Positions 18,256-61,134 of a DNA stretch of 64,000 bases are shown here, one piece after another. Location: the NCBI GenBank assembly GCA_965223415.1, contig OZ245002.1, forward strand, positions 1,344,001 to 1,408,000, read 5' to 3'. Origin of the DNA: Myxococcota bacterium. Lineage in GTDB: Bacteria; Myxococcota_A; UBA9160; UBA6930. The notes under the pieces are model-generated. The model was not told the origin of the DNA. It did no database searches and saw only the letters and a list, made by a program, of their open reading frames with translations. Positions within the stretch are counted from its first letter, which is position 1, and each line of letters begins with the position of its first letter. A program made the translations under genes and the position numbers.

Positions 18256-19416
18256 GTGAGCGGCGCCTTCGTTCCCGAGACCCTGCTCGCGGAGGCCCGC
18301 GAGCAGACGCGCCTGCAGGACTTCGGCGATCCCTCCTTCCGCGAGCCGATGGAGCGGCTCTGCCGTGCGCTCGCGGAGGAAGCACGGCTCAACCAGGTGG
18401 GCACGGCGACCCAGCGCCAGCGGGTGCTCGACATTCTCGTCACGCGGCTGCGGGTCGAGGACTTCTTCGCGCGGCACCCGGAGATCGCCGACGAGGAGAT
18501 CGGCGCGCCGCTGGTGGTCTGTGGGCTCCCCCGCACGGGCACGACCATGCTCCACCGCGTGATCGCCGAGGATCCGACCTTCGACGCGGCGCTCTGGTAC
18601 GAGGTGCGCTACCCGGCGCCCTTCGACGGCTGGAAACCCGGCGAGCCCGACGCACGCATCGCCGCCGCCGAGGAAGAGGTGCGGATGACCCTCGAGCTCG
18701 CGCCGGAGCTGATGGCGATCCATCCTTTCGAAGCCACCAGTCCGGACGAGGAGATCATGCTCCTCGAGCAGTCCTTCTTCAGCCGCACGCCCGAGTCCTA
18801 TTGCCACCTGCCGCGCTTCTCCGCCTGGCTCGAGGAGCAGGACCAGCTGCCGGGCTACCGCTACCTCCGGCGGCTGCTCCAGCTCCTGCAGTGGCAGCAC
18901 CGGCTCGAGGGACGGGCGCGGGAACGCTGGGTGCTGAAATCGCCCCACCACCTGGGCTTCCTGCCGGAGCTGTTCACGGTCTTCCCCGACGCGACGGTGA
19001 TCCAGACCCACCGCGACCCGGTGGACTCGATCCCATCCATCTGCAGCCTGTGCTTCCACCTGGAGACGATGGGCTGCGACGACCCGGACCCGAAGGCCAC
19101 CGGCGCCCACTGGAGCGCCGGCTGGGCCCGCTTCCTTGAGCGCGCCATGGCCTACCGGGACGCCGGCCACGAGGACCGCTTCCTCGACATCGACTACCTC
19201 CACTCGGTGAAGGACCCGGTCGCCACCGTCGCCCGGATCTACGCCTTCCTCGGCCGCGAGCTCACCCCGATCGCCGAGGACAAGATGCGCGCCTGGACCG
19301 AGGCCAACGCCCGCGACAAGCGCGCCGCCCACGCCTACACCCCCGCCCAGTTCGGCCTCACCGAAGCCACCCTCGCCCGCGACTTCGCCCCCTACCGCAC
19401 CCGCTTCGTCAAGTAG
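18256..19416 (+). CDS. Sulfotransferase (Sulfotransfer_3 family)
   Basis: GLPRTGTTMLH PAPS loop, WVLKSPHH, THRDP. Confidence 0.93.
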   Translation: MSGAFVPETLLAEAREQTRLQDFGDPSFREPMERLCRALAEEARLNQVGTATQRQRVLDILVTRLRVEDFFARHPEIADEEIGAPLVVCGLPRTGTTMLHRVIAEDPTFDAALWYEVRYPAPFDGWKPGEPDARIAAAEEEVRMTLELAPELMAIHPFEATSPDEEIMLLEQSFFSRTPESYCHLPRFSAWLEEQDQLPGYRYLRRLLQLLQWQHRLEGRARERWVLKSPHHLGFLPELFTVFPDATVIQTHRDPVDSIPSICSLCFHLETMGCDDPDPKATGAHWSAGWARFLERAMAYRDAGHEDRFLDIDYLHSVKDPVATVARIYAFLGRELTPIAEDKMRAWTEANARDKRAAHAYTPAQFGLTEATLARDFAPYRTRFVK

Positions 19417-19444
19417 AGAACCGCCGTCCGTTTATTGAGCCGTT

Positions 19445-19478
19445 GTTGCGTTAGGGGCCGGTTCCGTTTGTTGCGTTG
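19445..19478 (+). repeat. Dispersed repeat family B (copy 1)
   Basis: GTTGCGTTAGGGGCCGGTTCCGTTTGTTGCGTTG, identical (reverse complement) to 59508-59541; 21-bp core also at 23075-23095. Confidence 0.92.
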
Positions 19479-21935
19479 CTAGGTGAGGGCGCCGGATTCG
19501 GCGAGGCGGGCCACGTCGTCGTCGGTGTAGCCCAGGTGCTCGGTGAGGACTTCGAAGGTGTGCTGGCCGATGGTGGGGCCGGCGTGGGTGGGGCGTGAGG
19601 GCGTGGCGGAGAAGCGCGTCACGGGGCCATCGAAGCGGATGCGGCCCATGCGCGGGTGGTCGAGCTCGACGAAGAAGTCCCGGGCCAGGAGCTGCGGATC
19701 CTCGTGGAGGTCGGTGGCGCGCATGACCACGTAGGAGGGGACCCCCTGCTCCCGGAGAGAGCGGGCGAGCGCGAAGGGCTCACGCTCAGCGCACCAGGCG
19801 GCGAGCGGCGCCTCGAGCTCGGCCTTCCGGGCGATGCGCGCCGGGAGCGCATCGAGGTCCGGCGTCGCGAGCGCGGCCAGGTCGGGAACCGCTCCGCACA
19901 GGGCACGCCATTGTTCCGGCGTCTCGGTGGCGATCGCCAGGTATCGCTCCGTGCCCTCGGCGGCAAAGACGCCGTGCGGGCAGGCTCGCGCCGAATCGTG
20001 TCCCGGCCGCTCCTGCACGCGTCCGTTCACCGTGTAGTCGAGCACCATCGGCTCGAGGAAGTGGATCGCCCCCTCGATCTGGGCAAAGTCGATGTATTGG
20101 CCCTCGCCGGTGCGGTCGCGGTGGTGGAGCGCCGCCCCCAGGGCCGCCAGGGAGTAGCGGGGTGCGATGAAGTCGGTGTAGGCGCCCCAGGGCCCCGAGG
20201 GCACGCGATCCGGCCAGCCCGTCACCGCGACGAAGCCCGCCAGACCCGCGCCCTGCAGGCCGAAGCCCGTGTAGGCGGCCTCCGGCCCGGTCTGGCCGCG
20301 CATGCACGAGGAGATCATCACCAGCTCCGGCTTGCGGCGCCGCAGGGTCTCGTAGTCGAGCCCGAGCTTCGCGGCGGAGCCGGGTGTGAAGCTCTCGGTG
20401 ACCACGTCCGCCCAGTCCACCAGCCGAAGCGCCACCTCGCGCCCTTCCGCGGTGGAGAGATCGAGGGCGAGGCCCAGCTTGGATTGATTGAAGTTCGCCA
20501 TGGCGTAGCCGGTGCTGACGTTCGGCACGCCGTCCTTCCAGGGCGGGATCATGCGAAGCGGGTCGACATGCTTCTCGCTCTCGACCCGAAGCACGGTGGC
20601 GCCGAGGTTCGCCAGGTCCTTCGACACCAGCGGGAGCGCACCGACCCAGGAGAAGTCGGCCACCTTGAGCCCTTCGAAGATCGAGGCGCGCGGCGCCGCC
20701 GAAACCCGGGCGGGAACCAGCGGAGGTCGATTCGCGCTCTCCACCAGCGCCTGGTGCTGGCCGAGGGCCGGCGCCTCCGCGCGGTACACGACCGGCGTCG
20801 CGGACAGCCGGGCGAAAGGCCCCGGGTGGGTCGTTCCCGCGACGTCGACCCAGTAGTCCCGGGAGGCGAGCTGCGGATCGCCCAGCAGGTCGGCGGCGCT
20901 CCAGGCGGGCCCGATCAACCACTTGCCGTCGTGCGCGCGCTGCTGGATCTCGGCCTTGGTGCAGGTGCCGAGGAACGCCACGAGCTGGTCGAAGGCCCTT
21001 GCGATGGCCGGCGGCGTGATCTTGCCCTGGCCGAGCAGCTCGAACATCACGCTCCAGTCGTGATCGGCGAGGTCGTCGTCGATGGCGCCGCTCTCTGCCG
21101 CCCAGCGCATCATCGAGCCGAAGCTGCGCGCGCCGACCTCGGCGAGCACGAGCGTCATTACGACGAAGCCGTCCTTGCAGGCGGCCCTGTCCGGCACCAC
21201 GACGCCGGGCAGGAGCTCCTGGGGTTGGCGACGGTTCTCGCCCGAGCCCGGCTGGTTGTCGCCCATCAGCACCGGGTAGCCCTCTGCGAAGAGCAGCGTC
21301 CACAGCACCGCGGCCTGGCAGGAGACGTCCAGGTGTTGGCCGCGTCCGTCGCGGTGACGACCGTAGAGGGCGAGGATCGCGTCGGCGGCGGCCTGGACGC
21401 CGGCGTGGTGGGAGGTCTCCGGGTGCCCGATCGGAACCGGCGGCCGGTCCCGGTCGCCCTGCAGGTTCACGAGCCCACCGGCGCACGCGAGGGTGAGGTC
21501 CGTGGCGGGGCTCTCCGCCTCGGGTCCGGTGCGTCCGAACGGGGTGACGGAGACGTAGAGGAGAGCGGGGTTCAGCGCGTGCAGCGCGTCGAAGCCGAGG
21601 CCCAGGCGGTCGAGGGAGCCCGGCGCGGAGGACTCGATCAGGATGTCGGCGCCCCGGACCAGCTCGAGGAGGCGATCGCGGTCGGCTTCGTCCTCGATGT
21701 CGAGCACGACGCTCTTCTTGCCGAGCCCCCACGCCCGCCAGAAGAGCGAGCCGTCCGGATCGCCTTCGCGCCCGTCCTCGAAGGGAGCCAGGAAGCGGGC
21801 CTCGCAGCCACTCGGCGGCTCGACCTTGATGACCTCGGCGCCGAGGTCCGCCAGCACGCGGCCGGTGGCTTCCGCCAGGGGGGTGGCGAGATCGATCACG
21901 CGAAGGCCCGCGAGGGCGCCGGCAGTGTCGGGCAT
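19479..21935 (-). CDS. Family III CoA-transferase (CaiB/BaiF), tandem two-domain
   Basis: LAGLRVIDL..LADLGAEVIKVEPP, second domain FEGLKVADFSWVGA, SITPFG/GQTGP motifs. Confidence 0.94.
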   Translation of the reverse strand: MPDTAGALAGLRVIDLATPLAEATGRVLADLGAEVIKVEPPSGCEARFLAPFEDGREGDPDGSLFWRAWGLGKKSVVLDIEDEADRDRLLELVRGADILIESSAPGSLDRLGLGFDALHALNPALLYVSVTPFGRTGPEAESPATDLTLACAGGLVNLQGDRDRPPVPIGHPETSHHAGVQAAADAILALYGRHRDGRGQHLDVSCQAAVLWTLLFAEGYPVLMGDNQPGSGENRRQPQELLPGVVVPDRAACKDGFVVMTLVLAEVGARSFGSMMRWAAESGAIDDDLADHDWSVMFELLGQGKITPPAIARAFDQLVAFLGTCTKAEIQQRAHDGKWLIGPAWSAADLLGDPQLASRDYWVDVAGTTHPGPFARLSATPVVYRAEAPALGQHQALVESANRPPLVPARVSAAPRASIFEGLKVADFSWVGALPLVSKDLANLGATVLRVESEKHVDPLRMIPPWKDGVPNVSTGYAMANFNQSKLGLALDLSTAEGREVALRLVDWADVVTESFTPGSAAKLGLDYETLRRRKPELVMISSCMRGQTGPEAAYTGFGLQGAGLAGFVAVTGWPDRVPSGPWGAYTDFIAPRYSLAALGAALHHRDRTGEGQYIDFAQIEGAIHFLEPMVLDYTVNGRVQERPGHDSARACPHGVFAAEGTERYLAIATETPEQWRALCGAVPDLAALATPDLDALPARIARKAELEAPLAAWCAEREPFALARSLREQGVPSYVVMRATDLHEDPQLLARDFFVELDHPRMGRIRFDGPVTRFSATPSRPTHAGPTIGQHTFEVLTEHLGYTDDDVARLAESGALT

Positions 21936-21979
21936 GGTCCCTCCCTGCTCCAGGAGCCTGGGCAGTATAATCCGGCGCG

Positions 21980-23077
21980 ATGTCCGAACCGAACCCCGGA
22001 AAAGCGGTCCGCGATCCCCAGAGCTACCAGCAGGCCCTGAACGGCTGGATGGCCCGGGCCCAGCCCGAACGCGAGGGCCTGCGGGTGCACGACGTGGACA
22101 TGCCCCGGGCCACCGGCTTCTCGAACGAGACCGTCTTCTTCTCCGCCAGCTGGCGGGAGGGCGGGCGCGAGCGCAGCCAGCCCTACGTGGCGCGCATCGA
22201 GCCCGAGAGCGGCGGCCTGTTCCCGGTGCAGAACCCCGCCTGCGCTGTCTCGGTCGGCCTCCAGCACCGCGTGATGGAGGCGGTGCGGAGCGCCGGCCTC
22301 GCGCCGGTGCCGCCCACACTCCCCTACGAAGCCGACGCCTCGGTCCTCGGCAGCCCCTTCTTCGTGATGGAGTTCGTGCCGGGCGAGATCCCCGCGGACG
22401 TGCCGCGCTACTCCACCGACGGCTTCCTGGTCGACCGGGCCATCCCGGCCGAGCGCGAGCGCATGATCACGAGCGGCATCGAGACCATGGCTTCCCTTCA
22501 CGCTCTCGATTGGCGGGAAGCGGGGCTCGGCTGGCTCGACGCCTCCGGCACCGGCGCACCGACGATGGCCGACCAGCTGCGCATCTACCGCGACACGATC
22601 GAGCGTCAGCTGGGCGACCGCGAGCACCCGGTGCTGTTGCGAAGCCTCGGCTGGCTCGACGCCCATGTCCCGAACGCCGAGCCCGGCCTCTCCTGGGGCG
22701 ACGCCCGCCTCGGCAACATGATCTGGCAGGACTACCGCTGCGCCGCCGTCGTCGACTGGGAGGCCGCCTCCCTCTGCCCCCCGGAGGCCGACATCGGCTG
22801 GTGGGTGATGTTCGACCGCATGTCCTTCGACGACATGGACGCCCCACGCCTCGAGGGCTTCCCGACCCGCGAGGAGATGGTCGCCCTCTGGGAGGAGAAG
22901 ACCGGTCGAAAGGTCGCCGCCGATATCCACTACTGGGAGATCTTCGGCGTCATGCGCTTCTGCCAGGTCATGATCGGCCTCGGCGACCGCATGACCGCCG
23001 CCGGCCTCGCCCCCCCCGAAGCCAACATGTCCATCAACAACGGCGTCACCGAAGCCCTCGCCAGGCTGTTAAGCTAG
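21980..23077 (+). CDS. APH-family phosphotransferase (ACAD10/11 kinase-like)
   Basis: TGFSNET, LGSPFFVMEFVPG, WGDARLGN, VDWE. Confidence 0.9.
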   Translation: MSEPNPGKAVRDPQSYQQALNGWMARAQPEREGLRVHDVDMPRATGFSNETVFFSASWREGGRERSQPYVARIEPESGGLFPVQNPACAVSVGLQHRVMEAVRSAGLAPVPPTLPYEADASVLGSPFFVMEFVPGEIPADVPRYSTDGFLVDRAIPAERERMITSGIETMASLHALDWREAGLGWLDASGTGAPTMADQLRIYRDTIERQLGDREHPVLLRSLGWLDAHVPNAEPGLSWGDARLGNMIWQDYRCAAVVDWEAASLCPPEADIGWWVMFDRMSFDDMDAPRLEGFPTREEMVALWEEKTGRKVAADIHYWEIFGVMRFCQVMIGLGDRMTAAGLAPPEANMSINNGVTEALARLLS

Positions 23078-23100
23078 GGGCCGGTTCCGTTTGTTAAGTT
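23068..23100 (+). repeat. Dispersed repeat family B (copy 2)
   Basis: TGTTAAGC-TAGGGGCCGGTTCCGTT-TGTTAAGTT; same 21-bp core with a different direct-repeat flank. Confidence 0.88.
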
Positions 23101-24084
23101 GTAGATGCGCTCGGCGGTGTCGTGGAAGAGCAGGCGCTTCTCGTTCGGCGAGAAGGAAGCGGCGACGCGCTTGAAGGCGTTCCAGAGCACCCGGTAGGAG
23201 CAGGAGAGCTTGTCGACCGGGAAGTTGCTCTCGAAGAGGCACCGCTCCGGGCCGAAGGCCTCGATGGCGGCCAGGGTGTAGGGACGGATCGCAGCGGCCA
23301 GCTCCTCGCTTCCCGGCGGACGATCGCGCTCGTGCCAGCCGAAGCCGTTGATGCGCATCTGGAGGCCGCCGATCTTGACGACGACGTTCGGGCAGGTCGC
23401 CAGCTCTCCGATTGCACGGCGCCAATCGGCGAAGACCTCCCCCCGGCGCCCTGCGTAGGGCCCGACGCCGAGCGGCCCGCCGAAGTGGTCGAGCACGATC
23501 GTCGTGTGCGGGAAGGCCCTCGCAAGAGCGGTGAGCTCGGAGATCTGCGGGTGGTAGAGCCAGGCGTCGAAGCTGAGACCCAGCTCGCCGAGGAGCGCGA
23601 AGCCCCGCCGAAAGGTGGCGTCGCCCAGGAGCCCCGGCGGCGGCGAGGCGCGCCCGATGCCCAGGTGGCCGCTCGGGTCCCAACGCGTCGAATGCCGGAT
23701 GCCTCGGAAGCGATCCGGACTCGCCGCCCGATGCGCCTCCAGCACGGACCGCACGCCGTCGCCGAGGGTGAGATCCGCGTGGCTCACGATCCCCGCGGCG
23801 ACGCGCGGCGCCCCGCGAGGCACGACCACGCCGTCCACGAACTCCGTCTCGCCCACCGGCCGCAACGCCTCGGGTCCTTCCGGCCGGTACATCGCCCCGC
23901 ACTCGACGAAGACGCTGCTCACGACGCGGTGCCCGCCGCGCTCTACGTCCGCGAGCAGCTCCCCCTGCAGGTAGCGCCCCCGCCCGGGCTTGCCCTCCCA
24001 CAGGTGGTGGTGCGCGTCGCAGATCTCGAGCTCGGGCTCGAGCACCTCCTCTTCTGCCTGGGCCAGCCAGGCTTCGCGCTCCAT
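23074..24084 (-). CDS. Amidohydrolase family 2 protein (lactonase-like)
   Basis: DAHHHLW, FRGIRH, LDHFGGP, FESNFPVD; C-terminal LTNGTGP is encoded by the repeat. Confidence 0.92.
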   Translation of the reverse strand: MEREAWLAQAEEEVLEPELEICDAHHHLWEGKPGRGRYLQGELLADVERGGHRVVSSVFVECGAMYRPEGPEALRPVGETEFVDGVVVPRGAPRVAAGIVSHADLTLGDGVRSVLEAHRAASPDRFRGIRHSTRWDPSGHLGIGRASPPPGLLGDATFRRGFALLGELGLSFDAWLYHPQISELTALARAFPHTTIVLDHFGGPLGVGPYAGRRGEVFADWRRAIGELATCPNVVVKIGGLQMRINGFGWHERDRPPGSEELAAAIRPYTLAAIEAFGPERCLFESNFPVDKLSCSYRVLWNAFKRVAASFSPNEKRLLFHDTAERIYNLTNGTGP

Positions 24085-24125
24085 CCGGCGATGCTAGCCT
24101 GACCCGTCTTCCCCAAGGAGATCCC

Positions 24126-25361: not shown

Positions 25362-25368
25362 CGCGTCC

Positions 25369-26643
25369 TTGTCCGACGCCGCCGGGTCGAGAGACGCCGG
25401 AGGATCGCGCCAGGCCGTCCTCCTGCTCGCGGGACTGATGGCCTACTGGGGCTTCGCGGACGGCCTGAACGGCGCCGCGGCACCCTTCCTCGCCCGCGAG
25501 TTCGGCCTCGACGACGTCGGCATCAGCCGCTCCTTCGGCTGGATCTCGATCGGCGCGCTGGGCACCTACGGACTCGCGCGCTGGGCCGACCGCACCGGCC
25601 GCCGCCGCGTACTGCTGTGGACGATGCTCCTGATGGCGCCGCTCTGCATCGGTACCGCGCTGGCCTCGGGGCTCACGGCCTTCATCGTCGTGCAGGTGTT
25701 CGTGCAGGCCCTGAAGGGCCTGCTCGCAATCCTGGTGCCGGTGATGGTCACCGAGACCCTCTCCACCGAGGCGCGCGCCCGTGGCCAGGGCTGGGTCGGG
25801 CTCGCCGGCTCCCTCGGCGGCGGCGGCGGCCTGCTGCTGATGGCGGGCTCCGAGAACCTGCCGGGCACCTGGCGCTGGGTGTGGGGCGCCGCCGCGCTCG
25901 TCGTGATCGCGGTGCCATTCCTGCGCCGCGTCCTTCCCGAGAGCCGGCACTTCGAGCGCGCCGCCGCGGCCGGCGAGACCGAGAGCGCGAAGGTCCGCCA
26001 CCTGGTGAGCCCTCGCTATCGCCGACGCACCCTCGCCGTCCTGGCGGTCTCCGGGCTCTTCCCCATGGTCATCGCCGCGACCCAGTCGTGGCTGATCTAC
26101 TTCCCCGTGCAGCACCTGGGCCTGCCGCCCCTGGCCGCCACCGCCGTGGTGATCGTCGGCGGCGCCATGGCGCTGCCGGGCTTTCCGATCGGCGGGCATC
26201 TCTCGGAGGTGTGGGGCCGGCGGCCGACCTTCCTCGTCACGAGCGTCCTGTACTTCGGCGCCACCTGGGGCTTCTACCACGTGACGCAGGACTTCCCCGT
26301 GCACCCGGCCCTCGGGCTGGTGCCGGGCATGGCGGCGATGAGCTTCTGCTCCTCGGCGGCCGCCGTGCCGATGCGCGCCGCGGCCACGGAGCTCTTCCCC
26401 ACCGCCCTTCGCGCCACCCTCAGCGGCGGCGCGGCGATCGCCGTGGCCGTGGGCCAGATCTCCGCCTACTTCGCCACCTCGGCCCTGAGCGCGTGGCTCG
26501 GTGGCCTGCCCACCGCCGCCAGCCTGCTCGCCCTGGGCATGCCGACGGCCGGCCTGATCTTCTTCCTCGCGCTCCCCGAGACGCGCGGCCGACCGATCGA
26601 GGACGAGGACGCCGCGCACCGTGAGACAAGGGGACGTTCCTGA
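25369..26643 (+). CDS. MFS transporter
   Basis: ADRTGRRR, LPESRHF, GRRPT, TELFPTALRAT, LPETRG; TTG start uncertain. Confidence 0.88.
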   Translation: MSDAAGSRDAGGSRQAVLLLAGLMAYWGFADGLNGAAAPFLAREFGLDDVGISRSFGWISIGALGTYGLARWADRTGRRRVLLWTMLLMAPLCIGTALASGLTAFIVVQVFVQALKGLLAILVPVMVTETLSTEARARGQGWVGLAGSLGGGGGLLLMAGSENLPGTWRWVWGAAALVVIAVPFLRRVLPESRHFERAAAAGETESAKVRHLVSPRYRRRTLAVLAVSGLFPMVIAATQSWLIYFPVQHLGLPPLAATAVVIVGGAMALPGFPIGGHLSEVWGRRPTFLVTSVLYFGATWGFYHVTQDFPVHPALGLVPGMAAMSFCSSAAAVPMRAAATELFPTALRATLSGGAAIAVAVGQISAYFATSALSAWLGGLPTAASLLALGMPTAGLIFFLALPETRGRPIEDEDAAHRETRGRS

Positions 26644-26717
26644 CTGTCTCACTCCTCGGGCTGGAGATGGGCACCTGCGGCGGGAGTGAGACAGTCAGGA
26701 ACGTCCCCTTGTCTCAC
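26621..26717. repeat. REPIN-like inverted doublet, family A (copy 2)
   Basis: Perfect 35-bp arms 26621-26655 and 26683-26717 (GTGAGACAAGGGGACGTTCCTGACTGTCTCACTCC) with a 27-nt spacer. Confidence 0.92.
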
Positions 26718-27509
26718 CTACGCGTCCTCCAGGGGACGATGCCCCGAGAGGTTGATGAAGGCCGTGGCGCCGCCGTCGACCACCATGGCGTGGCCGGTGA
26801 CGGCGGAGGCATCCTCGCTGCATAGGAAGGCGACCACCGACGCGATCTCCTCGGGCTGGATCAGGCGCCCGATGGCGTGGAGATCCTCGACCTCCTCGCG
26901 GGTGCGGCGCGACGCCTGCTGGAACTGGTCGTAGAGCGGCGTCTCGACCACGCCGGGGCAGACCGCGTTGGCGCGGATCCCGCGCCGCCCGTACTCGATG
27001 GCGACGTTGCGCGTGAAGTTCACGACGCCGGCCTTGGCGGTGGTGTAGGGCGACGCGAACATCTCGCCGCCGAAGGCCTCGATCGAGGCGGTATTCACGA
27101 TCGAGCCGCCGCCGCGCTCGATCATCTCCGGCAGGGCCGCCCGGCAGCCGTAGAAGACCGCCGTGAGCATGATGCGCAGGCTCTTCTCCCAGCCGTCCGG
27201 GTCGAGGGCGTGCACCGGCCCGCCGCTCGACCACACCGCGTTGTTCATCATGATGTCGAGGCCGCCGAACTCGCGTACGGTGGCCGCGACGCAGTCCTCG
27301 AGCTGTGACAGCTCGCCCACGTCGCATGCGATGAAGCGCGCGCGTCCGCCGGCTTTGGCGATCTCCTGGGCGAGCTCGCCGCCCTTGGCCGCGTCGATGT
27401 CCGCACACACCACGGCGGCGCCCTCGGAGACGAGCCGGCGCAGCGTCGCGGCGCCGATCCCCGACGCTCCGCCCGTCACGATCGCCACCTTGCCGTCGAA
27501 TCGACCCAT
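26718..27509 (-). CDS. Short-chain dehydrogenase/reductase
   Basis: TGGASGIG, NNA, YTTAK, VVDGG; GGAGG RBS. Confidence 0.95.
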   Translation of the reverse strand: MGRFDGKVAIVTGGASGIGAATLRRLVSEGAAVVCADIDAAKGGELAQEIAKAGGRARFIACDVGELSQLEDCVAATVREFGGLDIMMNNAVWSSGGPVHALDPDGWEKSLRIMLTAVFYGCRAALPEMIERGGGSIVNTASIEAFGGEMFASPYTTAKAGVVNFTRNVAIEYGRRGIRANAVCPGVVETPLYDQFQQASRRTREEVEDLHAIGRLIQPEEIASVVAFLCSEDASAVTGHAMVVDGGATAFINLSGHRPLEDA

Positions 27510-30420: not shown

Positions 30421-31472
30421 GCGGCCTGCGCGATCGACTGCTGGGTGCCTGGCAGGGGCGCATCTCCGGCTGTCAGCTCGGCAAGCCGGTGGAGCTCCTG
30501 GTGCACGTCGAGGGACAGGAGGGCCTGACTTCCTATCTCGAGGGCGCCGGCGCCCTGCCCCTGCGCGACTACGTGCCACTCGTCGAGGACAGCGTGGTCG
30601 ACCGGACCGCGCGCGCTTCGTGCAAGGGCCAGCTCACCCGCAGCGAGCCCGACGACGACATCAACTACACCGTGCTCGCCCTGCTCCTGCTCGAAGAGCA
30701 CGGGCTCGCGCTGGACACCACCGCGGTCGGGCGCGCCTGGCTCCGCCTGCTGCCGGTCGGCGCCACCTTCACGGCCGAGCGCGCGGCCTACCGGACCCTT
30801 CTGGAGCGCGGCCACGAGTACTTCGCCCTCGGCGCGCCGCCGGGCTTCGACCTGGCGGAGTGCTCCGACCACGAGTGGAACGACTGGATCGGCGCGCAGA
30901 TTCGCGCGGACCTCTACGGCTGGGTGTGCCCGGGCCGGCCGGAGCTGGCGGCGGACCTCGCGCGCCGCGACGCCGCGCTCTCCCATCGCGGCGACGGCAT
31001 CCACGGTGCGGCCTTCGTCGCGGCAGCGGGTGCGGCGATTCCGGCGGCGGCGTCTCTCGAAGCGGCCGTCGAGCGCGCGCTGGCGGAGATCCCCGCCGAT
31101 TCCCGCGCGGCGGAGGCCGTGCGTCTCGGCCGCGAGCTGGCCGGGCACGGCGACGGCGGCGGCCGCATCCGCGAGCGCTACGCGGACCTCCCGGTGGTCC
31201 ACACCGTGAACAACCTCGCCCTCGTCGTGTGGTCGCTCCTGGGCCACCCCGACGATTTCGGCGCCGCCATCGGTGACGTGGTGGCCGCCGGCCTCGACAC
31301 CGACTGCAACGGCGCCACCGTCGGAGGCCTCTGGGGCCTCCAGGGCAAGCCCATCCCCGAGGCCTGGACGGCCCCCTGGGCCGGCCGTGTCGCCGTCCAG
31401 CTCGCCGGCCACGGCGAGCTCACCGTGGGCGACCTCGTCGCCCGCACCACCCACCTCGCCGAGACCCTCTGA
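30417..31472 (+). CDS. ADP-ribosylglycohydrolase family protein
   Basis: GCQLGKPVE, PDDDINYT, WIGAQIRADLYG, GLDTDCNGAT; GTGA overlap. Confidence 0.9.
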   Translation: MSGLRDRLLGAWQGRISGCQLGKPVELLVHVEGQEGLTSYLEGAGALPLRDYVPLVEDSVVDRTARASCKGQLTRSEPDDDINYTVLALLLLEEHGLALDTTAVGRAWLRLLPVGATFTAERAAYRTLLERGHEYFALGAPPGFDLAECSDHEWNDWIGAQIRADLYGWVCPGRPELAADLARRDAALSHRGDGIHGAAFVAAAGAAIPAAASLEAAVERALAEIPADSRAAEAVRLGRELAGHGDGGGRIRERYADLPVVHTVNNLALVVWSLLGHPDDFGAAIGDVVAAGLDTDCNGATVGGLWGLQGKPIPEAWTAPWAGRVAVQLAGHGELTVGDLVARTTHLAETL

Positions 31473-31473
31473 A

Positions 31474-31551
31474 AACGCAAGAGTGGGGACGTTCCTTGCA
31501 TCTTGCGCTCTTAAGAGCGCAAGATGCAAGGAACGTCCCCACTCTTGCGTT
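31474..31551. repeat. 78-bp perfect palindrome, family A (copy 3, different arms)
   Basis: AACGCAAGAGTGGGGACGTTCCTTGCATCTTGCGCTCTT followed directly by its reverse complement; shares the GGGGACGTTCCT core. Confidence 0.93.
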
Positions 31552-32420
31552 CAGCGGTTGGCGAGGGTGGAGTCCTTGAGCTGGCGGCGGGTGAGGTCGC
31601 CCATGCCCTTGGTGTCGAGGAGATCGGGGCGGACGGCGGCGATGGGATCGCGGGTGTCGTCGATGTAGCCCAGGGCGTAGGCGCCGCGGGCGTAGCCCAT
31701 CAGCCGGAGGAGATCCTTTGGGAGGGTGGCGGCGATCTCGCGGGGCACCGTCAGGTACTGGTTCTCCTCCTGGCGGAGGAAGCCCACGACGTAGGTGAGG
31801 TTGACGCCGATGCGCACGTCCTGGCTGCGGTTGGGGCCGCCGCCGTGGTAGACCGAGCCGGTGTAGAAGAGGACCGAGCCCGCCTCCATCTCCGCCGGCT
31901 CCGTGTCCTCGAGCCGGTAGCGGAGCTTGTCCTCGTGGAGGTGCGAGCCCGGGATCACGCGGGTGGCGCCGTTCTCCTCGTTGAAGTCGGTGAGTGCCCA
32001 GATGGTGTTGCACTGCACCTCGTAGCCCTTCGGGAAGGGGAAGAAGTCGAAGGCCCACTGGTCGCGGTGCACGTCCTGGGCCTTCTCGCCGGGCCCGATG
32101 GCGATCACCTGGGTCAGGTGGAGCTGGTAGTTGGTGACGTGGCCGAGCACCCGGTCGGCGGTGCCGAGCACCAGCGGGTGCCGGATCCACTCCCGGGCCT
32201 GCTCCGAGCGCGCGATCAGCGCGCCGGTGCGCCGCGTGGAACGGCCGGTGAAGCCGTCGACGCCCGGCGCCGTCGCTTCCAGATGCGGCCCGATCTCCTC
32301 CCGGAAGCGGGCGAGCTCCTCGGGCGCCGCGACGCCGTCGACGACCACGGCACCGTCCCGGGCCAGGAGCTGGGCAACGCGATCGGGACCGTCCTCGGGC
32401 TTCAGGTGTTCCACCGGCAT
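31551..32420 (-). CDS. PhyH-family 2OG-Fe(II) dioxygenase
   Basis: QDVHRD, ENGATRVIPGSH, YHGGGPN, LRQEENQYL. Confidence 0.93.
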   Translation of the reverse strand: MPVEHLKPEDGPDRVAQLLARDGAVVVDGVAAPEELARFREEIGPHLEATAPGVDGFTGRSTRRTGALIARSEQAREWIRHPLVLGTADRVLGHVTNYQLHLTQVIAIGPGEKAQDVHRDQWAFDFFPFPKGYEVQCNTIWALTDFNEENGATRVIPGSHLHEDKLRYRLEDTEPAEMEAGSVLFYTGSVYHGGGPNRSQDVRIGVNLTYVVGFLRQEENQYLTVPREIAATLPKDLLRLMGYARGAYALGYIDDTRDPIAAVRPDLLDTKGMGDLTRRQLKDSTLANR

Positions 32421-52244: not shown

Positions 52245-52246
52245 GC

Positions 52247-52262: not shown

Positions 52263-52295
52263 TCGTGCGGCCGTGGAGCACCTAGACTGAGGGCC

Positions 52296-52724: not shown

Positions 52725-53030
52725 GCGCACTGCGCGCCCCCGCGCCGGGCCCAGCGGGCCGGATCGCATAGGTCACTCCCCCCACCCGAACGTGTCGCCG
52801 GCATCGAACGGACGTTCTGCCGCGAAACGTGCCCGTGCGGGCACAGGAGCCTGTCCCCGGGGAACGGAGCGAAGCCACCTCCGTCGGTGGGCTGCTTGCG
52901 TTCCCGTGGCGAGGCCCTAGCGTATTACGGGTCAGAGGCCCCCTTTCGAAGCGATCCAAGGCCCACGGGTTTCCCAGGTCCGTGCATCTCTCGATCGAGC
53001 CTCCCTCACGAACCTGAAATCGGAGACCGA

Positions 53031-56777: not shown

Positions 56778-56864
56778 CGGGGCGAGCTTAGCGGGCGTGG
56801 CGCCTGGACCCGAGACCGGCCCAGCCGAGCTAGCTTCCCGTGGCCTCGAGAACGGAGGAGCATC

Positions 56865-57419: not shown

Positions 57420-57432
57420 GAGCCCGACCGGG

Positions 57433-58674: not shown

Positions 58675-58684
58675 TGCGGAGAGG

Positions 58685-59518
58685 CTAGCGCGGGTCCAGC
58701 ACGGCGACCCCGTCCTGGATGGCCTCTTCGCCGTCGGCGTTGCGCACCCGGAAGGCGACGAGGCCCCCGCCCGCGGACGTGAGCTCGAGCTCGATGGTCG
58801 TGCCCGGGATGACCATCGCCCGGAAGCGGCCGCGCAGGCGCCGCAGCCGGCGGGGCTCGCCGCCGGCGTGGCGTGCGACGATCTCCCGGCCTGCGAGGGC
58901 CCAGGTGGCGGTCCCGTGCAGGATGATGTCCGGCAAGCCCGCCGCGAGGGCCACCACCCTCTCGGTGTGGATCGGGTTCCAGATGCGCGCGCACTCGGTG
59001 TAGACGTGGGGCATCTCGCGGGGGATCGGGATCGCGATCGTCTCGGGCGGTCCCGCCTCTCCGAGCCGTGGGAGGGGCGGCGGCTCCTCGCGGGTGCGCG
59101 GCTCGCCGTCCAGACCGACGCCCCGGTACATCGAATCGGACCAGGAGCTGACGAGGATGCGGCCCTGGTCGTCGTAGCTGTCGTAGCGGCAGGTGAGCAG
59201 CGTCCCGGCGCTCGTCGCCCGCATCGCCGTCACGCGGCCGGTGGTGCGCACCTTCGCCCCGGGCCGGATCGGCGCGTAGAAGACCGAGTCCTGGGTGGCG
59301 TGGACGCCTCGCAGCAGCTCCCCGGGCTCCGCCCCGAGCAGGGCGGCCAGCTCCGGATGACTCGCGACCGGCCACTCGAGCGACACGCAGAAGGGCGGCG
59401 GCGCCACCTCCCCCGAGCCCAGCGCCCCGATCCCCGCCCCGTAGGCGAGCACCCGCCGCACCGAGACCTCCTCGACCGAATCCGGAAGCCACGACCCGAC
59501 GGCAGAACAACGCAACAA
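58685..59518 (-). CDS. Double hot-dog MaoC-type (R)-specific enoyl-CoA hydratase; start uncertain
   Basis: RGVHATQD, IWNPIHTE, ILHGTAT, FRAMVIPG; the only plausible starts are TTG 59518/59515 inside repeat B. Confidence 0.85.
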   Translation of the reverse strand: MLRCSAVGSWLPDSVEEVSVRRVLAYGAGIGALGSGEVAPPPFCVSLEWPVASHPELAALLGAEPGELLRGVHATQDSVFYAPIRPGAKVRTTGRVTAMRATSAGTLLTCRYDSYDDQGRILVSSWSDSMYRGVGLDGEPRTREEPPPLPRLGEAGPPETIAIPIPREMPHVYTECARIWNPIHTERVVALAAGLPDIILHGTATWALAGREIVARHAGGEPRRLRRLRGRFRAMVIPGTTIELELTSAGGGLVAFRVRNADGEEAIQDGVAVLDPR

Positions 59519-59558
59519 ACGGAACCGGCCCCTAACGCAACGGGCCCCTAACGCAACG
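59508..59558 (-). repeat. Dispersed repeat family B (copy 3) with 16-bp tandem partial duplication
   Basis: 59508-59541 is the exact reverse complement of 19445-19478; GGCCCCTAACGCAACG is repeated at 59527-59542 and 59543-59558. Confidence 0.92.
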
Positions 59559-61134
59559 CCTGGTCGCGGAGGATGAACTTCTGGACCTTGCCGGTCGCGT
59601 TCATGGGGAGCTCGGGGACGATTTCGATGCGGCGGGGGACCTTGAAGTTGGCCATGTGCTCGCGGCACCAGGCGTGGAGGGCGTCCGGGTCGGGGCTCGC
59701 GCCGGGTTCGGGGACGACGAAGGCCATGCCGACCTCGCCCATGCGCTCGTCGGGGATGCCGATCACCGCCACCTGGGCGATCTCCGGGTGCTCGAACATG
59801 AGGGCCTCGATCTCGGCCGGGTAGCAGTTGAAGCCGCCCATGATGAACATGTCCTTCTTGCGATCGGTGATGTCCAGGTAGCCGTTCTCGTCCATCACGC
59901 CGATGTCGCCTGTGTGGAGCCAGCCGTCGGGGTCGATGACCTTGCGGGTCTCCTCTTCGTCCTCGAAGTAGCCCTGCATCACGTTGTAGCCGCGGATCAC
60001 CACCTCGCCGGGCTCGCCCCGCGGCACCTCCTTGCCGTCGTCGTCGACGCAGCGCACCTCCACGTCCGGATTCGCGCGGCCGGAGGTCTTCGAGATGATC
60101 TCGGGATCGTCGCCGTCCCGACACATGGTGGCGAGGCCGGTCGCTTCGGTGAGGCCGTAGGCGGTGAGAACCGTCTCGAAGCCCAGCTCGTCCCGCATGC
60201 GGCGGATCAGCTCCACGGAGATGGGAGCTGCGCCCGTGACGGCCAAGCGGAGGTGGGACAGGTCGTACTCGTCGCGATCCGGATGCATCAAGATCGACTC
60301 GTAGAGCGAGGGCACGCCCGGCAGCACGTTGATGTGTTCCTCGTCGATCCGCTTCAGCAGTGCGGGCACGTCGAGCACCTTGTGGGGCAGGCAGGTCGCT
60401 CCGCGCATGATGCAGGCGAGCCAGCCAGCCTTGTAGCCGAAGGTGTGGAAGAAGGGGCTCACAACGAGGTAGCGATCTCCCTCGCGCAGGCCGACCAGCT
60501 CGCTCCAGCTCTCGAAGCCGCGCAGGTTCTGCTCGTAGGTCGTCATCACGCCCTTCGGCTTCCCGGTGGTGCCCGAGGTGAACATGATGTCCGCCAGGTC
60601 GCCGGGCCGGACCGCCTCGAGCCGCTCCCGCGCCGCGTCCTCCGCGATCGCCTCGCCGGCCTCGAGGAAGGCCTCCCAGCCCTCCGCCTTCGGGTGGCTG
60701 CCGTCGAAGAGCACGATGCGCTCGAGATCGGGGAGGTCGAGCGCTGCGACCCGGTCCGCATAACGTTCTCCGAGAAACTCCTCCAGGGTGAAGACCATGC
60801 GGGCGCGGCTCTTGCGAAGCGAGTGGTCCGCCTCGGAGGACTTGTAGCGGGTGTTCATCGGCACGAGAACGCCACCCGCGGATTGGAGGCCGATGGCGGC
60901 CAGCGCCCACTCCAGCTGGTTCGGCGCCCAGACGCCCACCCGATCCCCGGGCTCGAGGCCGGCGGCCAGGAAGGCCCTCGCGCTTCGCAGCGCCACCCCG
61001 CCCAGCTCGGCGAAGGTAAGGCTGCGTCCCGCGTCCTCGAAGGCCATCCGCTCGGCGAAGCGCTGGGCGGCGTCCTGTACGAGGCGCGGCAGGGTGCCGG
61101 AGGAGGAAGGACGGTAGTCGCTGGCTGCGCTCAC
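59548..61134 (-). CDS. FadD3-like acyl-CoA synthetase
   Basis: FTSGTTGKPKG, PFFHTFGYKAG, TAYGLTEA, GWLHTGD, GGFNCYPAEIE, NATGKV. Confidence 0.93.
   Translation of the reverse strand: MSAASDYRPSSSGTLPRLVQDAAQRFAERMAFEDAGRSLTFAELGGVALRSARAFLAAGLEPGDRVGVWAPNQLEWALAAIGLQSAGGVLVPMNTRYKSSEADHSLRKSRARMVFTLEEFLGERYADRVAALDLPDLERIVLFDGSHPKAEGWEAFLEAGEAIAEDAARERLEAVRPGDLADIMFTSGTTGKPKGVMTTYEQNLRGFESWSELVGLREGDRYLVVSPFFHTFGYKAGWLACIMRGATCLPHKVLDVPALLKRIDEEHINVLPGVPSLYESILMHPDRDEYDLSHLRLAVTGAAPISVELIRRMRDELGFETVLTAYGLTEATGLATMCRDGDDPEIISKTSGRANPDVEVRCVDDDGKEVPRGEPGEVVIRGYNVMQGYFEDEEETRKVIDPDGWLHTGDIGVMDENGYLDITDRKKDMFIMGGFNCYPAEIEALMFEHPEIAQVAVIGIPDERMGEVGMAFVVPEPGASPDPDALHAWCREHMANFKVPRRIEIVPELPMNATGKVQKFILRDQALR

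What the first reader, a model, noticed from the sequence alone, without database searches (positions are those of the whole stretch)
19321..59700. Local strand-skew switch (C-rich to G-rich) centred on the repeats, independent of gene orientation
Hand counts in 60-nt plus-strand blocks: 19321-19380 C35/G12 vs 19561-19620 G34/C12; 22981-23040 C29/G13 vs 23101-23160 G25/C13; 31441-31470 (30 nt) C18/G4 vs 31621-31680 G29/C13; 59401-59460 C34/G15 vs 59581-59640 G26/C15. A control block (12961-13020) is G20/C20. The 59.5-kb locus is the informative one: both genes are on the minus strand, yet the upstream gene ends in C-ending codons and the downstream gene starts with G-ending codons (GGG, GCG, GTG, TCG). 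The effect is one-sided at 12.5 kb and weak at 26.6 kb. Inference: the repeats mark sites of recurrent strand-asymmetric mutation or DNA synthesis (nicking then repair, or origin-like priming), leaving a mini origin-like skew. I know of no description of this for such repeats. Blocks were chosen by eye, so selection bias is possible.
Basis: partly seen in the sequence, partly recalled or inferred. Interest (0 to 1): 0.75.

Follow-up and report, generated by a model that had tools for sequence, protein, structure and literature searches.

The report
Mirror-image base skew flanking REP repeats
In this bacterium the ends of genes that touch a small mobile hairpin repeat have had their silent codon positions rewritten, C-rich on the strand that runs into the repeat and G-rich on the strand that leaves it, and no known process explains this.

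Summary
All nine hand counts are exact. Genome-wide, 179 gene junctions carry the two repeat families. Convergent junctions with a repeat go from -10.0 to +11.2 G-C per 60 nt; repeat-free ones stay near zero (p=2e-34).

- The skew sits mainly at silent sites: four-fold sites are C 77%/G 18% against 52%/40%. It fades over about 350 nt.
- It appears at 5' gene ends too, at under half strength.
- Junctions without repeat-related motifs show no switch.
- In congeners that lack the repeat, orthologous gene ends are not skewed: 33 of 35 flanks are more C-rich in this genome.

The repeats are REP/RAYT-type elements.

- A Rho loading site is excluded, because the genome has no rho gene.
- Fork direction has no effect.
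- Deamination alone does not fit.

My best guess (0.4) is strand-polar repair or conversion seeded at the repeats. Selection on transcripts remains a serious rival.

Earlier notes of this scan record similar mirror skews at palindromic repeats in other genomes. I found no published description.

The parts
19445..19479 (+). Family B repeat unit (core GGGGCCGGTTCC between two direct GTTGCGTT words) between convergent genes
   Evidence: nhmmer E=4.6e-8; sequence; 71 exact cores in the genome, 61 of them intergenic
19076..19416 (+). 3' end of a sulfotransferase-family gene (18256-19416, +); C-rich on the plus strand
   Evidence: Blocks -6,-5,-12,-4,-20,-14 up to the repeat; Pfam PF13469. Orthologs in three congeners without the repeat read -15, -24 and -9 against -51 to -55 here
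19479..19778 (-). 3' end of a CoA-transferase III gene (19479-21935, -); G-rich on the plus strand
   Evidence: Blocks +11,+20,+13,+9,+8; Pfam PF02515. Ortholog in G002 -15 against -53 here, on the strand running into the repeat
23068..23101 (+). Family B repeat unit (GTTAAG word variant) overlapping both stop codons of a convergent pair
   Evidence: nhmmer E=9.9e-9; sequence; gene ends at 23077 (+) and 23074 (-)
23103..23282 (-). 3' end of an amidohydrolase gene (23074-24084, -); G-rich on the plus strand. The left flank is skewed only in its last 60 nt (23006-23065)
   Evidence: Right +13,+7,+7; left -16 in the last block; Pfam PF04909 and PF01636
31474..31551 (.). Family A inverted pair (REPIN-like; cores GGGGACGTTCC and GGAACGTCCCC), a perfect 39+39 nt palindrome between convergent genes
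   Evidence: the repeat finder I4, 100% complementary; nhmmer E=3e-8 for each unit
31174..31472 (+). 3' end of an ADP-ribosylglycohydrolase gene (30417-31472, +); C-rich on the plus strand
   Evidence: Blocks -6,-4,-5,-7,-13; Pfam PF03747; orthologs +10 and +10 against -20 here
31552..31851 (-). 3' end of a PhyH-family dioxygenase gene (31551-32420, -); G-rich on the plus strand
   Evidence: Blocks +12,+16,+13,+1,+10; Pfam PF05721; orthologs -7, +3 and -5 against -41 to -21 here, on the strand running into the repeat
59508..59558 (-). Family B unit in reverse orientation plus a partial second copy, between two minus-strand genes (tandem junction)
   Evidence: nhmmer E=3.1e-8 for 59508-59542; sequence
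59559..59738 (-). 3' end of an AMP-binding (acyl-CoA synthetase-like) gene (59548-61134, -); G-rich on the plus strand
   Evidence: Blocks +9,+9,+7; Pfam PF00501 and PF13193
59388..59452 (-). Called 5' end of a MaoC-like gene (58685-59452, -); C-rich on the plus strand, so G-rich in its own sense. The start codon is my caller's choice and is not verified
   Evidence: Blocks -11,-11; the Pfam MaoC domain covers only residues 158-228
26622..26718 (.). Family A pair (GTGAGACA stem variant) at a convergent junction; weak skew
   Evidence: blocks left -6,-7,-6 and right +2,+3,-3. The left-flank C-richness is shared with congeners
12535..12631 (.). Family A pair at a divergent junction; no C-to-G switch
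   Evidence: the repeat finder I1; blocks left -17,-1 and right -8,-5; genes 10380-12530 (-) and 12652-13788 (+)

Best explanation
The repeats are REP/RAYT-type mobile hairpin elements that sit just behind stop codons. Where one occupies a gene junction, about 350 nt on each side has been recoded, mostly at silent sites. The strand that runs 5'->3' into the repeat gains C and loses G (G>C, plus G>A and T>C), and its complement does the reverse.

I think the most likely cause is a DNA-level, strand-polar substitution drive seeded at the repeat. Repeated nicking or breakage at the REP is followed by repair synthesis or heteroduplex correction. That repair treats the strand ending 3' at the repeat differently from the strand leaving it. 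It acts more often or further on the side where a gene is transcribed into the repeat.

Shown: the pattern, its restriction to repeat junctions, its gain together with the repeat among species, and the failure of the Rho, fork-direction, gene-orientation and deamination explanations.

Inferred: that the drive is repair or conversion and not selection, and every molecular step of it.
For: 1. Specificity.
- Of the 100 highest D180 values among 4152 junctions, 58 carry family A or B and 83 carry a related motif, against 723 of 4152 overall.
- The 479 convergent junctions free of such motifs have mean D180 of 1.9.
- Families A1, A2, both B variants and C all show the skew.

2. Gain together with the repeat.
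- 35 3' flanks beside repeats in this genome read -28.0. Their orthologs in congeners without a recognisable core read -5.7. 33 of 35 are more C-rich here (Wilcoxon p=1.2e-6).
- 57 control flanks read -1.6 against -1.4.
- Congeners that carry a repeat at the same junction, of the same or another family, are skewed too.

3. The same junction slots hold different families or variants in G000 and G005, which points to recurrent DNA events at the same places. RAYT genes are flanked by family A and by family B units.

4. The effect is mirrored on both sides, including 5' gene ends (S180 +9.7 and +8.8 against -1.2 and -1.3; p=6e-4 and 9e-5). Non-coding spacers read +0.11 to +0.17 against -0.024.

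5. G+C at four-fold sites is slightly higher in the flanks (A+T 5.1% against 8.2%), as expected from conversion-like processes.

6. In single family-B units the amplitude depends on unit orientation (36.5 on the 5' side, 18.3 on the 3' side; n=32; p=3.5e-6). This shows cis coupling to the element.

7. A 3.5- to 5-fold strand bias in C>G change reproduces the observed four-fold composition.
Against: - The effect is two to three times stronger, and reaches twice as far, at 3' gene ends than at 5' ends at equal distance. A pure DNA process does not predict this. Selection on transcripts running into the repeat does.
- In the small ortholog sample, the 5'-flank skew was not specific to this genome (5 flanks, -10.3 against -9.6).
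- The same family A repeats have much weaker flank skew in five other genomes (D180 7.7 to 29.9 against 38.5), although one of them has a RAYT. Age or a host factor has to be invoked.
- The stationary composition (C > A~T > G) is just what a selection-like force would give. I know of no enzyme that gives strand-specific G>C change.
- No nick, break or conversion event has been observed. No RNA data or close-strain polymorphism data were available.
Confidence: 0.4

Rival explanations
1. Selection on RNA. Transcripts that run into a REP hairpin need a C-rich, G-poor (unstructured) tail, for a Rho-independent way of ending, processing or stabilising the message. Silent sites upstream of the repeat are therefore driven to C.
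For: - The effect is strongest where a gene is transcribed into the repeat, and it is as strong at tandem junctions as at convergent ones (S180 25.3 and 19.4 against 24.5).
- Silent-site ranking is C > A~T > G. At two-fold codons G>A rises (19.8% against 10.5%) and T falls (4.1% against 11.7%). A and T are not raised at four-fold sites.
- A selection-like term fits the composition by construction.
- The family-B orientation effect fits. Read from its 3' side the unit itself is C-rich and G-poor, so that gene needs less skew of its own (the link is my inference).
- REPs act as terminators and stabilisers in E. coli (abstract; passages).
Against: - The one known reader of C-rich, G-poor RNA, Rho, is absent.
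- 5' ends of downstream genes and non-coding spacers are skewed in mirror image. That would need antisense or read-through RNA to matter.
- The 479 motif-free convergent junctions show nothing, so this is not the genome's general way of ending genes.
- About 100 silent sites per flank would each need a visible fitness effect, and only once a repeat is there.
Confidence: 0.25
2. Rho loading sites: the C-rich zone is the rut site of a Rho-dependent terminator that uses the REP as pause or protective hairpin.
For: The composition matches the textbook description of rut: unstructured, C-rich, G-poor, about 80-90 nt, upstream of the stop (passage). REPs lie near Rho-dependent ends in E. coli. Another note of this scan read a similar pattern that way (e1-5049611).
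Against: - TIGR00767 finds no rho in this complete one-contig genome, nor in 4 of its 5 congeners.
- tblastn with two relatives' Rho sequences finds only a match of 22-23% identity at 2.009 Mb, which I take to be another ATPase. The same queries hit a congener's fragment at 68%.
- The Rho RNA-binding domain is found in 0 of 6 genomes of the genus.
- Across six genomes the size of the skew does not follow the presence of rho.
- In E. coli the C/G excess is reported downstream of REPs. Here it is upstream.
Confidence: 0.02
3. Single-strand DNA damage: cytosine (and adenine) deamination on a strand that is repeatedly exposed next to the repeat, through resection, R-loops or strand displacement.
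For: G and T are both in excess on the outward strand, as on replication leading strands. The two-fold codon shifts are the two deamination transitions. Earlier notes of this scan favour this reading for mirror skews at palindromes in other genomes (e1-4796194, e1-1902801).
Against: - In all 24 parameter sets, a C>T (with or without A>G) bias strong enough to give the observed G/C ratio needs a 6- to 25-fold rate rise. It also predicts 8-17% T at four-fold sites on that strand, where 2.5% is observed.
- 5'->3' resection at a break exposes the inward strand, which would then lose C. The inward strand is the C-rich one here, so the polarity is opposite to this model (inference from geometry).
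Confidence: 0.05
4. Insertion preference: the repeats land, or survive, only at junctions that already had a C-to-G switch.
For: The same junction slots are reused by different families in different species. RAYT-type enzymes act on single-stranded DNA (recalled knowledge), which skewed DNA might offer.
Against: - Orthologous junctions without a repeat in congeners are not skewed (-5.7 against -28.0).
- Almost no empty skewed slots exist. Among motif-free convergent junctions 7.9% exceed +30 and 4.4% fall below -30, and there is no excess at tandem junctions.
- Family A repeats sit at nearly unskewed junctions in other genera.
Confidence: 0.05
5. Origin-like priming or another replication-fork-linked process at the repeats.
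For: The polarity is that of an origin: G and T in excess on the strands that leave the site.
Against: - There is no difference between the flank met first and the flank met second by the fork (23.2 against 25.8; n=82; p=0.28), and no orientation bias of units relative to the inferred leading strand. Fork direction is inferred only from gene-orientation bias.
- The genome's own replication skew at four-fold sites is about 0.01-0.02, against 0.6-0.7 here.
- There are at least 179 sites, and the effect fades in 350 nt.
Confidence: 0.03
6. No special feature: a by-product of gene orientation, amino-acid content or blocks chosen by eye.
For: Coding strands are slightly C-rich in general (-0.5 to -1.7 per 60 nt), and 100 of the 179 junctions are convergent.
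Against: The general effect is ten times too small. Repeat-free convergent junctions show none. The skew is at four-fold sites, with small amino-acid shifts. Fixed blocks and controls give p down to 1e-34.
Confidence: 0.01

Closest known systems
REP / REPIN elements with RAYT (Y1 HUH) transposases
   Same: - Short hairpin units in high copy outside genes: 165 and 71 exact cores, 88% and 86% of them intergenic.
- They lie mostly at convergent or tandem gene ends.
- Family A is mainly inverted pairs.
- PF01797 genes lie between two units of family A and of family B.
- Two earlier notes on this genome reached the same filing (e1-2212459, e1-2212460).
   Different: - None of the 12 REPIN/RAYT papers listed holds the term 'GC skew', and searches found no description of a flank skew.
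- Family B units are bounded by direct words that co-vary, not by a stem.
[quoted passage not shown] 2021, PMC8256042; passages read)
   Same: Intense, correlated GC and TA skews inside coding DNA of G+C-rich bacteria. They are visible at third codon positions, change sign abruptly on a scale of about 150 nt, are linked by the authors to gene conversion, and have an unknown mechanism.
   Different: GRINS are by definition duplicated segments inside polyketide synthase genes. Here the skewed segments are unique ends of unrelated housekeeping-type genes, and the sign switch is anchored on an intergenic mobile repeat.
Rho-dependent terminators (rut sites) near REPs in E. coli (Dar & Sorek 2018, PMC6061677, passages; Harris et al. 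2026 preprint, abstract)
   Same: C-over-G composition next to REP hairpins at gene ends; REPs act as terminators and stabilisers.
   Different: There is no rho gene here. The C excess is upstream of the REP here but is reported downstream of it in E. coli. The size of the effect at silent sites is far greater than a 'mild enrichment'.
Replication- and transcription-associated strand skews
   Same: G with T against C with A; the sign flips at a point.
   Different: The scale is 350 nt, not a replichore or a gene. The amplitude is 0.6-0.7 at four-fold sites against about 0.01-0.02 for replication in this genome. The coding strand is C-rich at 3' ends, the opposite of deamination of the non-transcribed strand. 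The composition is not explained by transitions.
Mirror skews at palindromic repeats noted earlier in this scan (e1-4796194, e1-1902801, e1-1206304; unpublished AI notes on other genomes)
   Same: Housekeeping genes rewritten at silent sites on both sides of hairpin-rich repeats, in mirror image.
   Different: Two of those notes (e1-4796194, e1-1902801) report the opposite polarity, G+T-rich on the left, and about 1 kb reach; e1-1206304 gives about 1.3 kb and names no polarity. They were read as resection damage. I did not re-examine them.

Membership tests
Rho-dependent terminator / rut site | The organism encodes Rho | tested here: not met
   TIGR00767: no match in G000, which is complete, 1 contig, 97% marker completeness. 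tblastn with two relatives' Rho sequences: best hit 22-23% identity. PF07497: 0 of 6 genomes of the genus
Rho-dependent terminator / rut site | C-rich, G-poor RNA of about 80 nt or more upstream of the stop | tested here: met
   3' flanks: G 15.7 and C 26.4 per 60 nt in the first block; four-fold sites C 77%, G 18%
Rho-dependent terminator / rut site | Rho-sensitive RNA 3' ends | not testable with these tools
   No RNA run is listed for this organism
REP/REPIN-RAYT element (the repeats themselves) | Short repeated hairpin units, high copy, extragenic | tested here: met
   Family A has stems; family B has direct words and no clear stem, so for B this is only partly met
REP/REPIN-RAYT element (the repeats themselves) | A Y1 transposase (RAYT) gene flanked by the repeat units | tested here: met
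   PF01797 matches at 859208-859531, between family A units at 859075 and 860007, and at 3528523-3528852, between family B units at 3528045 and 3528955
REP/REPIN-RAYT element (the repeats themselves) | GTAG or CGTC tag at one end of the unit (Di Nocera et al. 2013, PMC3733652; only the search listing was seen) | tested here: inconclusive
   The family A core holds CGTC on one strand (GGAACGTCCCC). Its place relative to the unit end was not analysed
GRINS | Intense, correlated GC and TA skews in coding DNA, third positions included | tested here: met
   G-C and A-T have opposite signs on each side (so GC and TA skews go together), and both pairs flip at the repeat
GRINS | The skewed segment is itself a repeat (duplicated within the gene cluster) | tested here: not met
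   The repeats found at the six sites in the window are the intergenic units alone. The flanks align to single orthologous genes in congeners
Replication origin or terminus skew switch | The skew persists over a replichore; one or a few sites per chromosome; tied to fork direction | tested here: not met
   It fades within about 350 nt, occurs at 179 or more junctions, and shows no effect of inferred fork direction
Deamination-type strand asymmetry (transcription, R-loop, resection) | Skew produced by C>T and A>G on the exposed strand | tested here: not met
   The model predicts 8-17% T at four-fold sites on the exposed strand in 24 of 24 parameter sets; 2.5% is observed

The most novel reading that the evidence does not exclude
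REP slots are hot spots of strand-polar biased gene conversion. Breaks made at the repeat leave 3' tails, the inward strands, which form heteroduplex with a homologous partner. Mismatch repair corrects G:G (and G:T) mispairs on the invading strand but is blind to C:C, so C accumulates on the strand that runs into the repeat and G on its complement. MutS is present and NucS absent in this genus; the blindness of MutS to C:C is recalled knowledge. If true, this would give a general mechanism for intense local skews, including GRINS, and a sequence footprint from which recombination-initiation sites and their polarity could be read in any genome.
Probability: 0.12. Interest if true: 0.9.

Novelty: new variant of a known kind. 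Interest (0 to 1): 0.8.

Why it matters
REP-type repeats are among the commonest non-coding elements of bacteria, yet their effect on the host is still debated. Here they mark zones where unrelated genes have had up to three quarters of their silent sites pushed to one base, in mirror image. The change arrives with the repeat during speciation.

If the cause is a DNA process, it would be a strong local and directional force on bacterial coding sequence. It would show that mobile hairpins reshape neighbouring genes, and it would leave a readable footprint of where and in which direction DNA is broken or copied. If the cause is selection, a Rho-less bacterium has a so far unknown way of ending or processing transcripts that reads C-rich RNA.

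Either way it distorts codon-usage, dS and gene-transfer measures near gene ends. It may also share a cause with the unexplained GRINS of antibiotic synthase genes.

Tried and rejected
- **RNA evidence:** no RNA holder is listed for this stretch. The four DNA runs, laid as contigs, only showed assembly breaks at the repeats and scattered letters from mixed organisms. No usable polymorphism or excision signal came out.
- **Frequent intergenic 12-mers as a general repeat label:** too noisy, since 768 junctions were flagged and the signal was diluted. I did not use it beyond noting a small same-direction shift at divergent junctions.
- **Pattern scan of the species collection for GGGGACGTTCCTTGC:** Only a few multi-copy records, labelled Myxococcota or delta proteobacterium among others, were useful, and they showed no clear skew.
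- **First Rho tblastn:** it used a wrongly framed ORF and gave nothing. It was repeated with the in-frame match.
- **Rho presence as the host factor:** rejected. The skew is strong in G012, which has rho, and weak in G044, where no rho was found.
- **RAYT presence as the host factor:** rejected. G031 has a RAYT between family A units but little skew.
- **Literature:** searches found no description of skew at REPs.
- **Two tool calls failed on format.** One search was repeated in the right format; one search was dropped.

Full report
**Setting**

The window is bases 1,344,001-1,408,000 of a complete one-contig genome of 5,833,097 bp with 71% G+C. I called genes with my own codon-model caller, which gave 5195 genes covering 90% of the genome. 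These calls are not curated.

I did not determine the taxon. Multi-copy hits of one repeat in the species collection are in records labelled Myxococcota or delta proteobacterium, among other labels.

**Check of the observation**

Among the 1066 non-overlapping 60-nt blocks of the window, G-C has a standard deviation of 6.4, and only 3 blocks reach |G-C|>=19.

To remove choice by eye, I read fixed 60-nt blocks outward from the edges of all six repeat sites.
- The C-to-G switch is clear at 19.4, 31.5 and 59.5 kb.
- At 23.07 kb it is clear on the right side and confined to the last block on the left.
- It is weak at 26.6 kb.
- It is absent at the divergent junction at 12.5 kb.

**The repeats**

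Two families account for the six sites.
- **Family A** has the core GGGGACGTTCC: 165 exact copies, 145 of them intergenic, where 10.15% of the genome is intergenic. The core sits inside a short stem (GTGAGACA...TGTCTCAC or CGCAAGA...TCTTGCG). At 74 junctions it occurs as a '+-' inverted pair and at 29 as a single unit.
- **Family B** has the core GGGGCCGGTTCC: 71 copies, 61 intergenic. It is bounded by two direct words that co-vary (GTTGCGTT twice or GTTAAGTT twice), and it mostly occurs as single units.

Profile searches gave 184 sites in 179 junctions: 100 convergent, 75 tandem and 4 divergent. Five further sites lie deep in called genes.

A third palindromic family, family C, appeared among the most skewed 'repeat-free' junctions. 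The units abut or overlap stop codons.

Y1-transposase (PF01797) genes lie between two family A units (859075 and 860007) and between two family B units (3528045 and 3528955). The same is seen in two relatives. These are therefore REP/RAYT-type elements, as two earlier notes on this genome concluded (e1-2212459, e1-2212460).

**Genome-wide test**

I compared junctions with and without a repeat, taking only those whose two flanking genes are at least 400 nt long.

| Junction class | n with / without repeat | L60, R60 with repeat | L60, R60 without | p (test on D60) |
|---|---|---|---|---|
| Convergent | 82 / 584 | -10.0, +11.2 | +0.7, -1.0 | 2.4e-34 |
| Tandem, plus strand | 26 / 1276 | -10.5, +3.7 | about zero | 5e-12 |
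| Tandem, minus strand | 33 / 1458 | -5.0, +8.0 | about zero | 5e-13 |
| Divergent | 4 / 689 | not significant | | 0.43 |

- D180 exceeds +30 in 73% of convergent repeat junctions and 12.5% of the others. No repeat junction falls below -30.
- The general C-richness of coding strands is only 0.5-1.7 per 60 nt (1301 genes). That is ten times too small to explain the switch.
- Of the 100 most skewed of 4152 junctions, 58 carry family A or B and 83 carry a related motif.
- Once such motifs are removed, the 479 remaining convergent junctions have mean D180 of 1.9, with 7.9% above +30 and 4.4% below -30.
- All subfamilies show the effect: A1 22.5, A2 42.3, the B word variants 37.5 and 58.1, and family C 32-38.

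**Anatomy of the skew**

- **Both skews flip.** G-C and A-T both change sign at the repeat: the strand leaving the repeat is rich in G and T.
- **Silent sites.** The effect lies mainly at third codon positions. At four-fold sites of 130 3' flanks, C is 76.8% and G 18.1%. In 2267 control flanks they are 52.1% and 39.7%. Amino-acid shifts are small: fewer Gly, Glu and Val; more Thr, His and Ile.
- **Reach at 3' ends.** Measured from the repeat edge, the four-fold GC skew of the outward strand reads 0.73, 0.67, 0.50, 0.39, 0.28 and 0.23. It then returns to the baseline of about 0.14 by 360-420 nt.
- **Reach at 5' ends.** At 5' gene ends it reads +0.15, +0.17 and +0.05, against a baseline of -0.14 to -0.2.
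- **Relative size.** In odds of G to C this is about 4.8-fold at 3' ends and 1.9-fold at 5' ends (my arithmetic).
- **The 5' effect is real.** S180 is +9.7 and +8.8 against -1.2 and -1.3 (p=6e-4 and 9e-5).
- **Spacers.** Non-coding spacers beside repeats read +0.11 to +0.17. Repeat-free tandem spacers read -0.024.
- **Two-fold codons.** In the last 120 nt of 3' flanks, R-ending codons use A in 19.8% against 10.5% (p=2e-11), and Y-ending codons use T in 4.1% against 11.7% (p=7e-15). A and T are not raised at four-fold sites.

So on the strand that runs into the repeat, the ranking is C > A~T > G.

**Evolutionary coupling**

I compared seven 20-kb regions, holding 110 junctions (21 with a repeat), with five congeners at about 73-84% DNA identity.
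- **Flanks beside repeats.** For 35 3' flanks beside repeats, G-C on the inward strand over about 240 nt is -28.0 here. It is -5.7 in orthologs whose junction has no recognisable core. 33 of the 35 are more C-rich here (Wilcoxon p=1.2e-6).
- **Control flanks.** 57 control flanks read -1.6 against -1.4, and 30 of the 57 are more C-rich here.
- **Congeners with a repeat.** Where a congener has a repeat at the same junction it is skewed too: -63 against -63, -29 against -34, -40 against -21. This also holds where the repeat belongs to another family.
- **Congener G005.** Its family B copies are flanked by -10.6 and -7.5 on the left and +7.4 and +8.4 on the right. Twelve to thirteen chance matches of the same 12-mer in the other congeners give about zero.
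- **Slot reuse.** The same slots hold different variants or families in G000 and G005.
- **Caveat.** The five 5' flanks in this sample were no more skewed here than in congeners (-10.3 against -9.6).

**Other genera**

For family A sites analysed in one way, D180 summed over both sides is as follows.

| Genome | D180 | n | p |
|---|---|---|---|
| G000 | 38.5 | 100 | 1e-27 |
| G012 | 29.9 | 20 | 6e-9 |
| G036 | 15.4 | 19 | 0.004 |
| G044 | 12.2 | 20 | 0.005 |
| G031 | 7.7 | 20 | 0.08 |
| G015 | 7.8 | 19 | 0.07 |

The sign is the same everywhere and the size differs widely. The copies in G031 and G015 are nearly identical to each other, so they may be young. That is my inference.

**What it is not**

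1. **Rho.**
   - The rho model finds nothing in this complete genome or in four of its five congeners. The fifth has only a 266-aa piece on an 800-nt contig.
   - tblastn with two relatives' Rho sequences gives only a match of 22-23% identity. The same queries hit the congener fragment at 68%.
   - The Rho RNA-binding domain is found in 0 of 6 genomes of the genus.
   - Rho is patchy in the family, found in 15 of 33 genomes, and the size of the skew does not follow it.
   - In E. coli the C/G excess linked to REPs is reported downstream of them (passage in PMC6061677). Here it lies upstream.
2. **Replication.**
   - Gene-orientation bias places the origin near 2.0 Mb and the terminus near 4.9 Mb.
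   - The flank met first by the fork reads 23.2 and the one met second 25.8 (n=82, p=0.28).
   - Units show no orientation bias relative to the leading strand.
3. **Deamination alone.**
   - I used a four-state substitution model fitted to the control composition.
   - A strand-specific rise of C>T, with or without A>G, has to be 6- to 25-fold to give the observed G/C ratio.
   - It then predicts 8-17% T at four-fold sites on the exposed (outward) strand in all 24 parameter sets. The observed value is 2.5%.
   - A 3.5- to 5-fold rise of C>G on the outward strand, together with A>G, reproduces the data.
4. **Target preference.** Empty skewed slots hardly exist, and orthologous empty junctions are not skewed.

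**A further clue**

In 32 single family-B units at convergent junctions, the flank on the 5' side of the unit as written has S180 of 36.5 and the 3' side 18.3 (p=3.5e-6). At tandem junctions both the unit side and the kind of gene end matter: 28.4, 23.1, 14.6 and 11.6. The element is therefore coupled in cis, and with a direction, to the skew.

**Reading**

Two explanations survive.

*A DNA-level drive seeded at the repeat.* This fits:
- the restriction to repeat junctions;
- the gain of skew together with the repeat;
- the slot turnover and the RAYT link;
- the mirror geometry, including 5' ends and spacers;
- the slightly higher G+C at silent sites;
- the need for a G>C-type bias.

It does not by itself explain why 3' ends are hit two to three times harder.

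*Selection for C-rich, G-poor transcripts running into the repeat.* This fits:
- the asymmetry between 3' and 5' ends;
- the ranking C > A~T > G;
- the family-B orientation effect.

But it has lost its only known reader, Rho. It also has to explain the mirror skew at 5' ends and in spacers, and why only repeat junctions are affected.

I put the first at 0.4 and the second at 0.25. The rest goes to the minor rivals and to causes I have not thought of.

A specific version of the first is biased correction of mismatches on invading 3' strands by a MutS system that does not see C:C. It would give the right polarity and a G>C bias. MutS is present and NucS absent. This version is speculation.

**Comparison with what is known**

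- **The repeats** are members of the REP/RAYT kind.
- **The skew.** I found no description of it. None of the 12 REPIN/RAYT papers listed holds the term 'GC skew', and searches gave nothing relevant. Subscription journals are largely outside the library.
- **GRINS** is the closest published phenomenon (PMC8256042, passages): intense, correlated GC and TA skews in coding DNA, of unknown cause and linked to gene conversion. GRINS are duplicated segments within polyketide synthase genes, which these flanks are not.
- **This scan** has noted mirror skews at palindromic repeats in other genomes. Two of those notes report the opposite polarity (e1-4796194, e1-1902801). Another genome has a pattern of the same polarity that was read as Rho loading (e1-5049611). 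I did not re-test those.

**Limits**

- Gene calls, ortholog pairs (best blastn hits) and fork direction are my own inferences.
- The congeners are fragmented assemblies with up to 5% contamination, and repeats often end their contigs.
- The relatives are not independent samples.
- No expression, nick or population data exist for this organism in the tools I had.

Noticed in passing
Whole genome G000 and its family (genome search handles): No rho gene in this complete genome or its genus. Rho was found in only 15 of 33 genomes of the family, missing from whole genera (g1 apart from one fragment, g4, g5, g6, g9). How these G+C-rich bacteria end transcripts without Rho is open.
   Followed up: partly
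window 19445-19479, 23068-23101, 59508-59542; genome-wide list: Family B units are bounded by two direct, not inverted, 8-nt words that co-vary between copies (GTTGCGTT twice or GTTAAGTT twice). That is unusual for a REP and hints at recognition by a protein or at a copying mechanism rather than a hairpin.
   Followed up: no
G000 C1:859075-860007 and C1:3528045-3528955: Two Y1-transposase (RAYT-like) genes, each lying between two units of its own repeat family (A and B). Five weaker PF01797 matches, and one strong one at 5490263-5490616, lie elsewhere.
   Followed up: partly
G000 junctions at 283318, 956931, 1939032, 1946987 and 2271276 against G005 loci L101-L111: The same gene junction holds different repeat families or word variants in two species of the genus. 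At 1939032 only a remnant (CTAACGCAAC) is left in G000, yet the flank skew is still strong (-50/+31).
   Followed up: partly
G000 e.g. 2610334-2610402, 3436690-3436768, 3556402-3556475: A third palindromic family, C (arms of about 30 nt with the GGGGCCAGAGTTAAG core around a variable loop), at 34 junctions. It also carries the C-to-G switch (D180 32-38).
   Followed up: partly
window 19400-19480, 23060-23105, 31460-31560; many sites: The repeats abut or supply the stop codons of the flanking genes (TGA-ACGCAAG......CGTTCA, GCTAG-GGGCC). At 23.07 kb both convergent genes end inside one 34-nt unit.
   Followed up: no
Whole genome G000: Replication-associated GC skew is almost absent, about 0.01-0.02 at four-fold sites. 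Gene-orientation bias alone suggests an origin near 2.0 Mb and a terminus near 4.9 Mb.
   Followed up: partly
G001 locus L003 (rc 2599-2760) and G004 (rows): Congeners carry further, different hairpin or tandem repeats at the same junctions (for example a GTTGACGAAGGGGTCGGGTCTCTCAGTCAAC unit in two copies). Their flanks are skewed as well.
   Followed up: no
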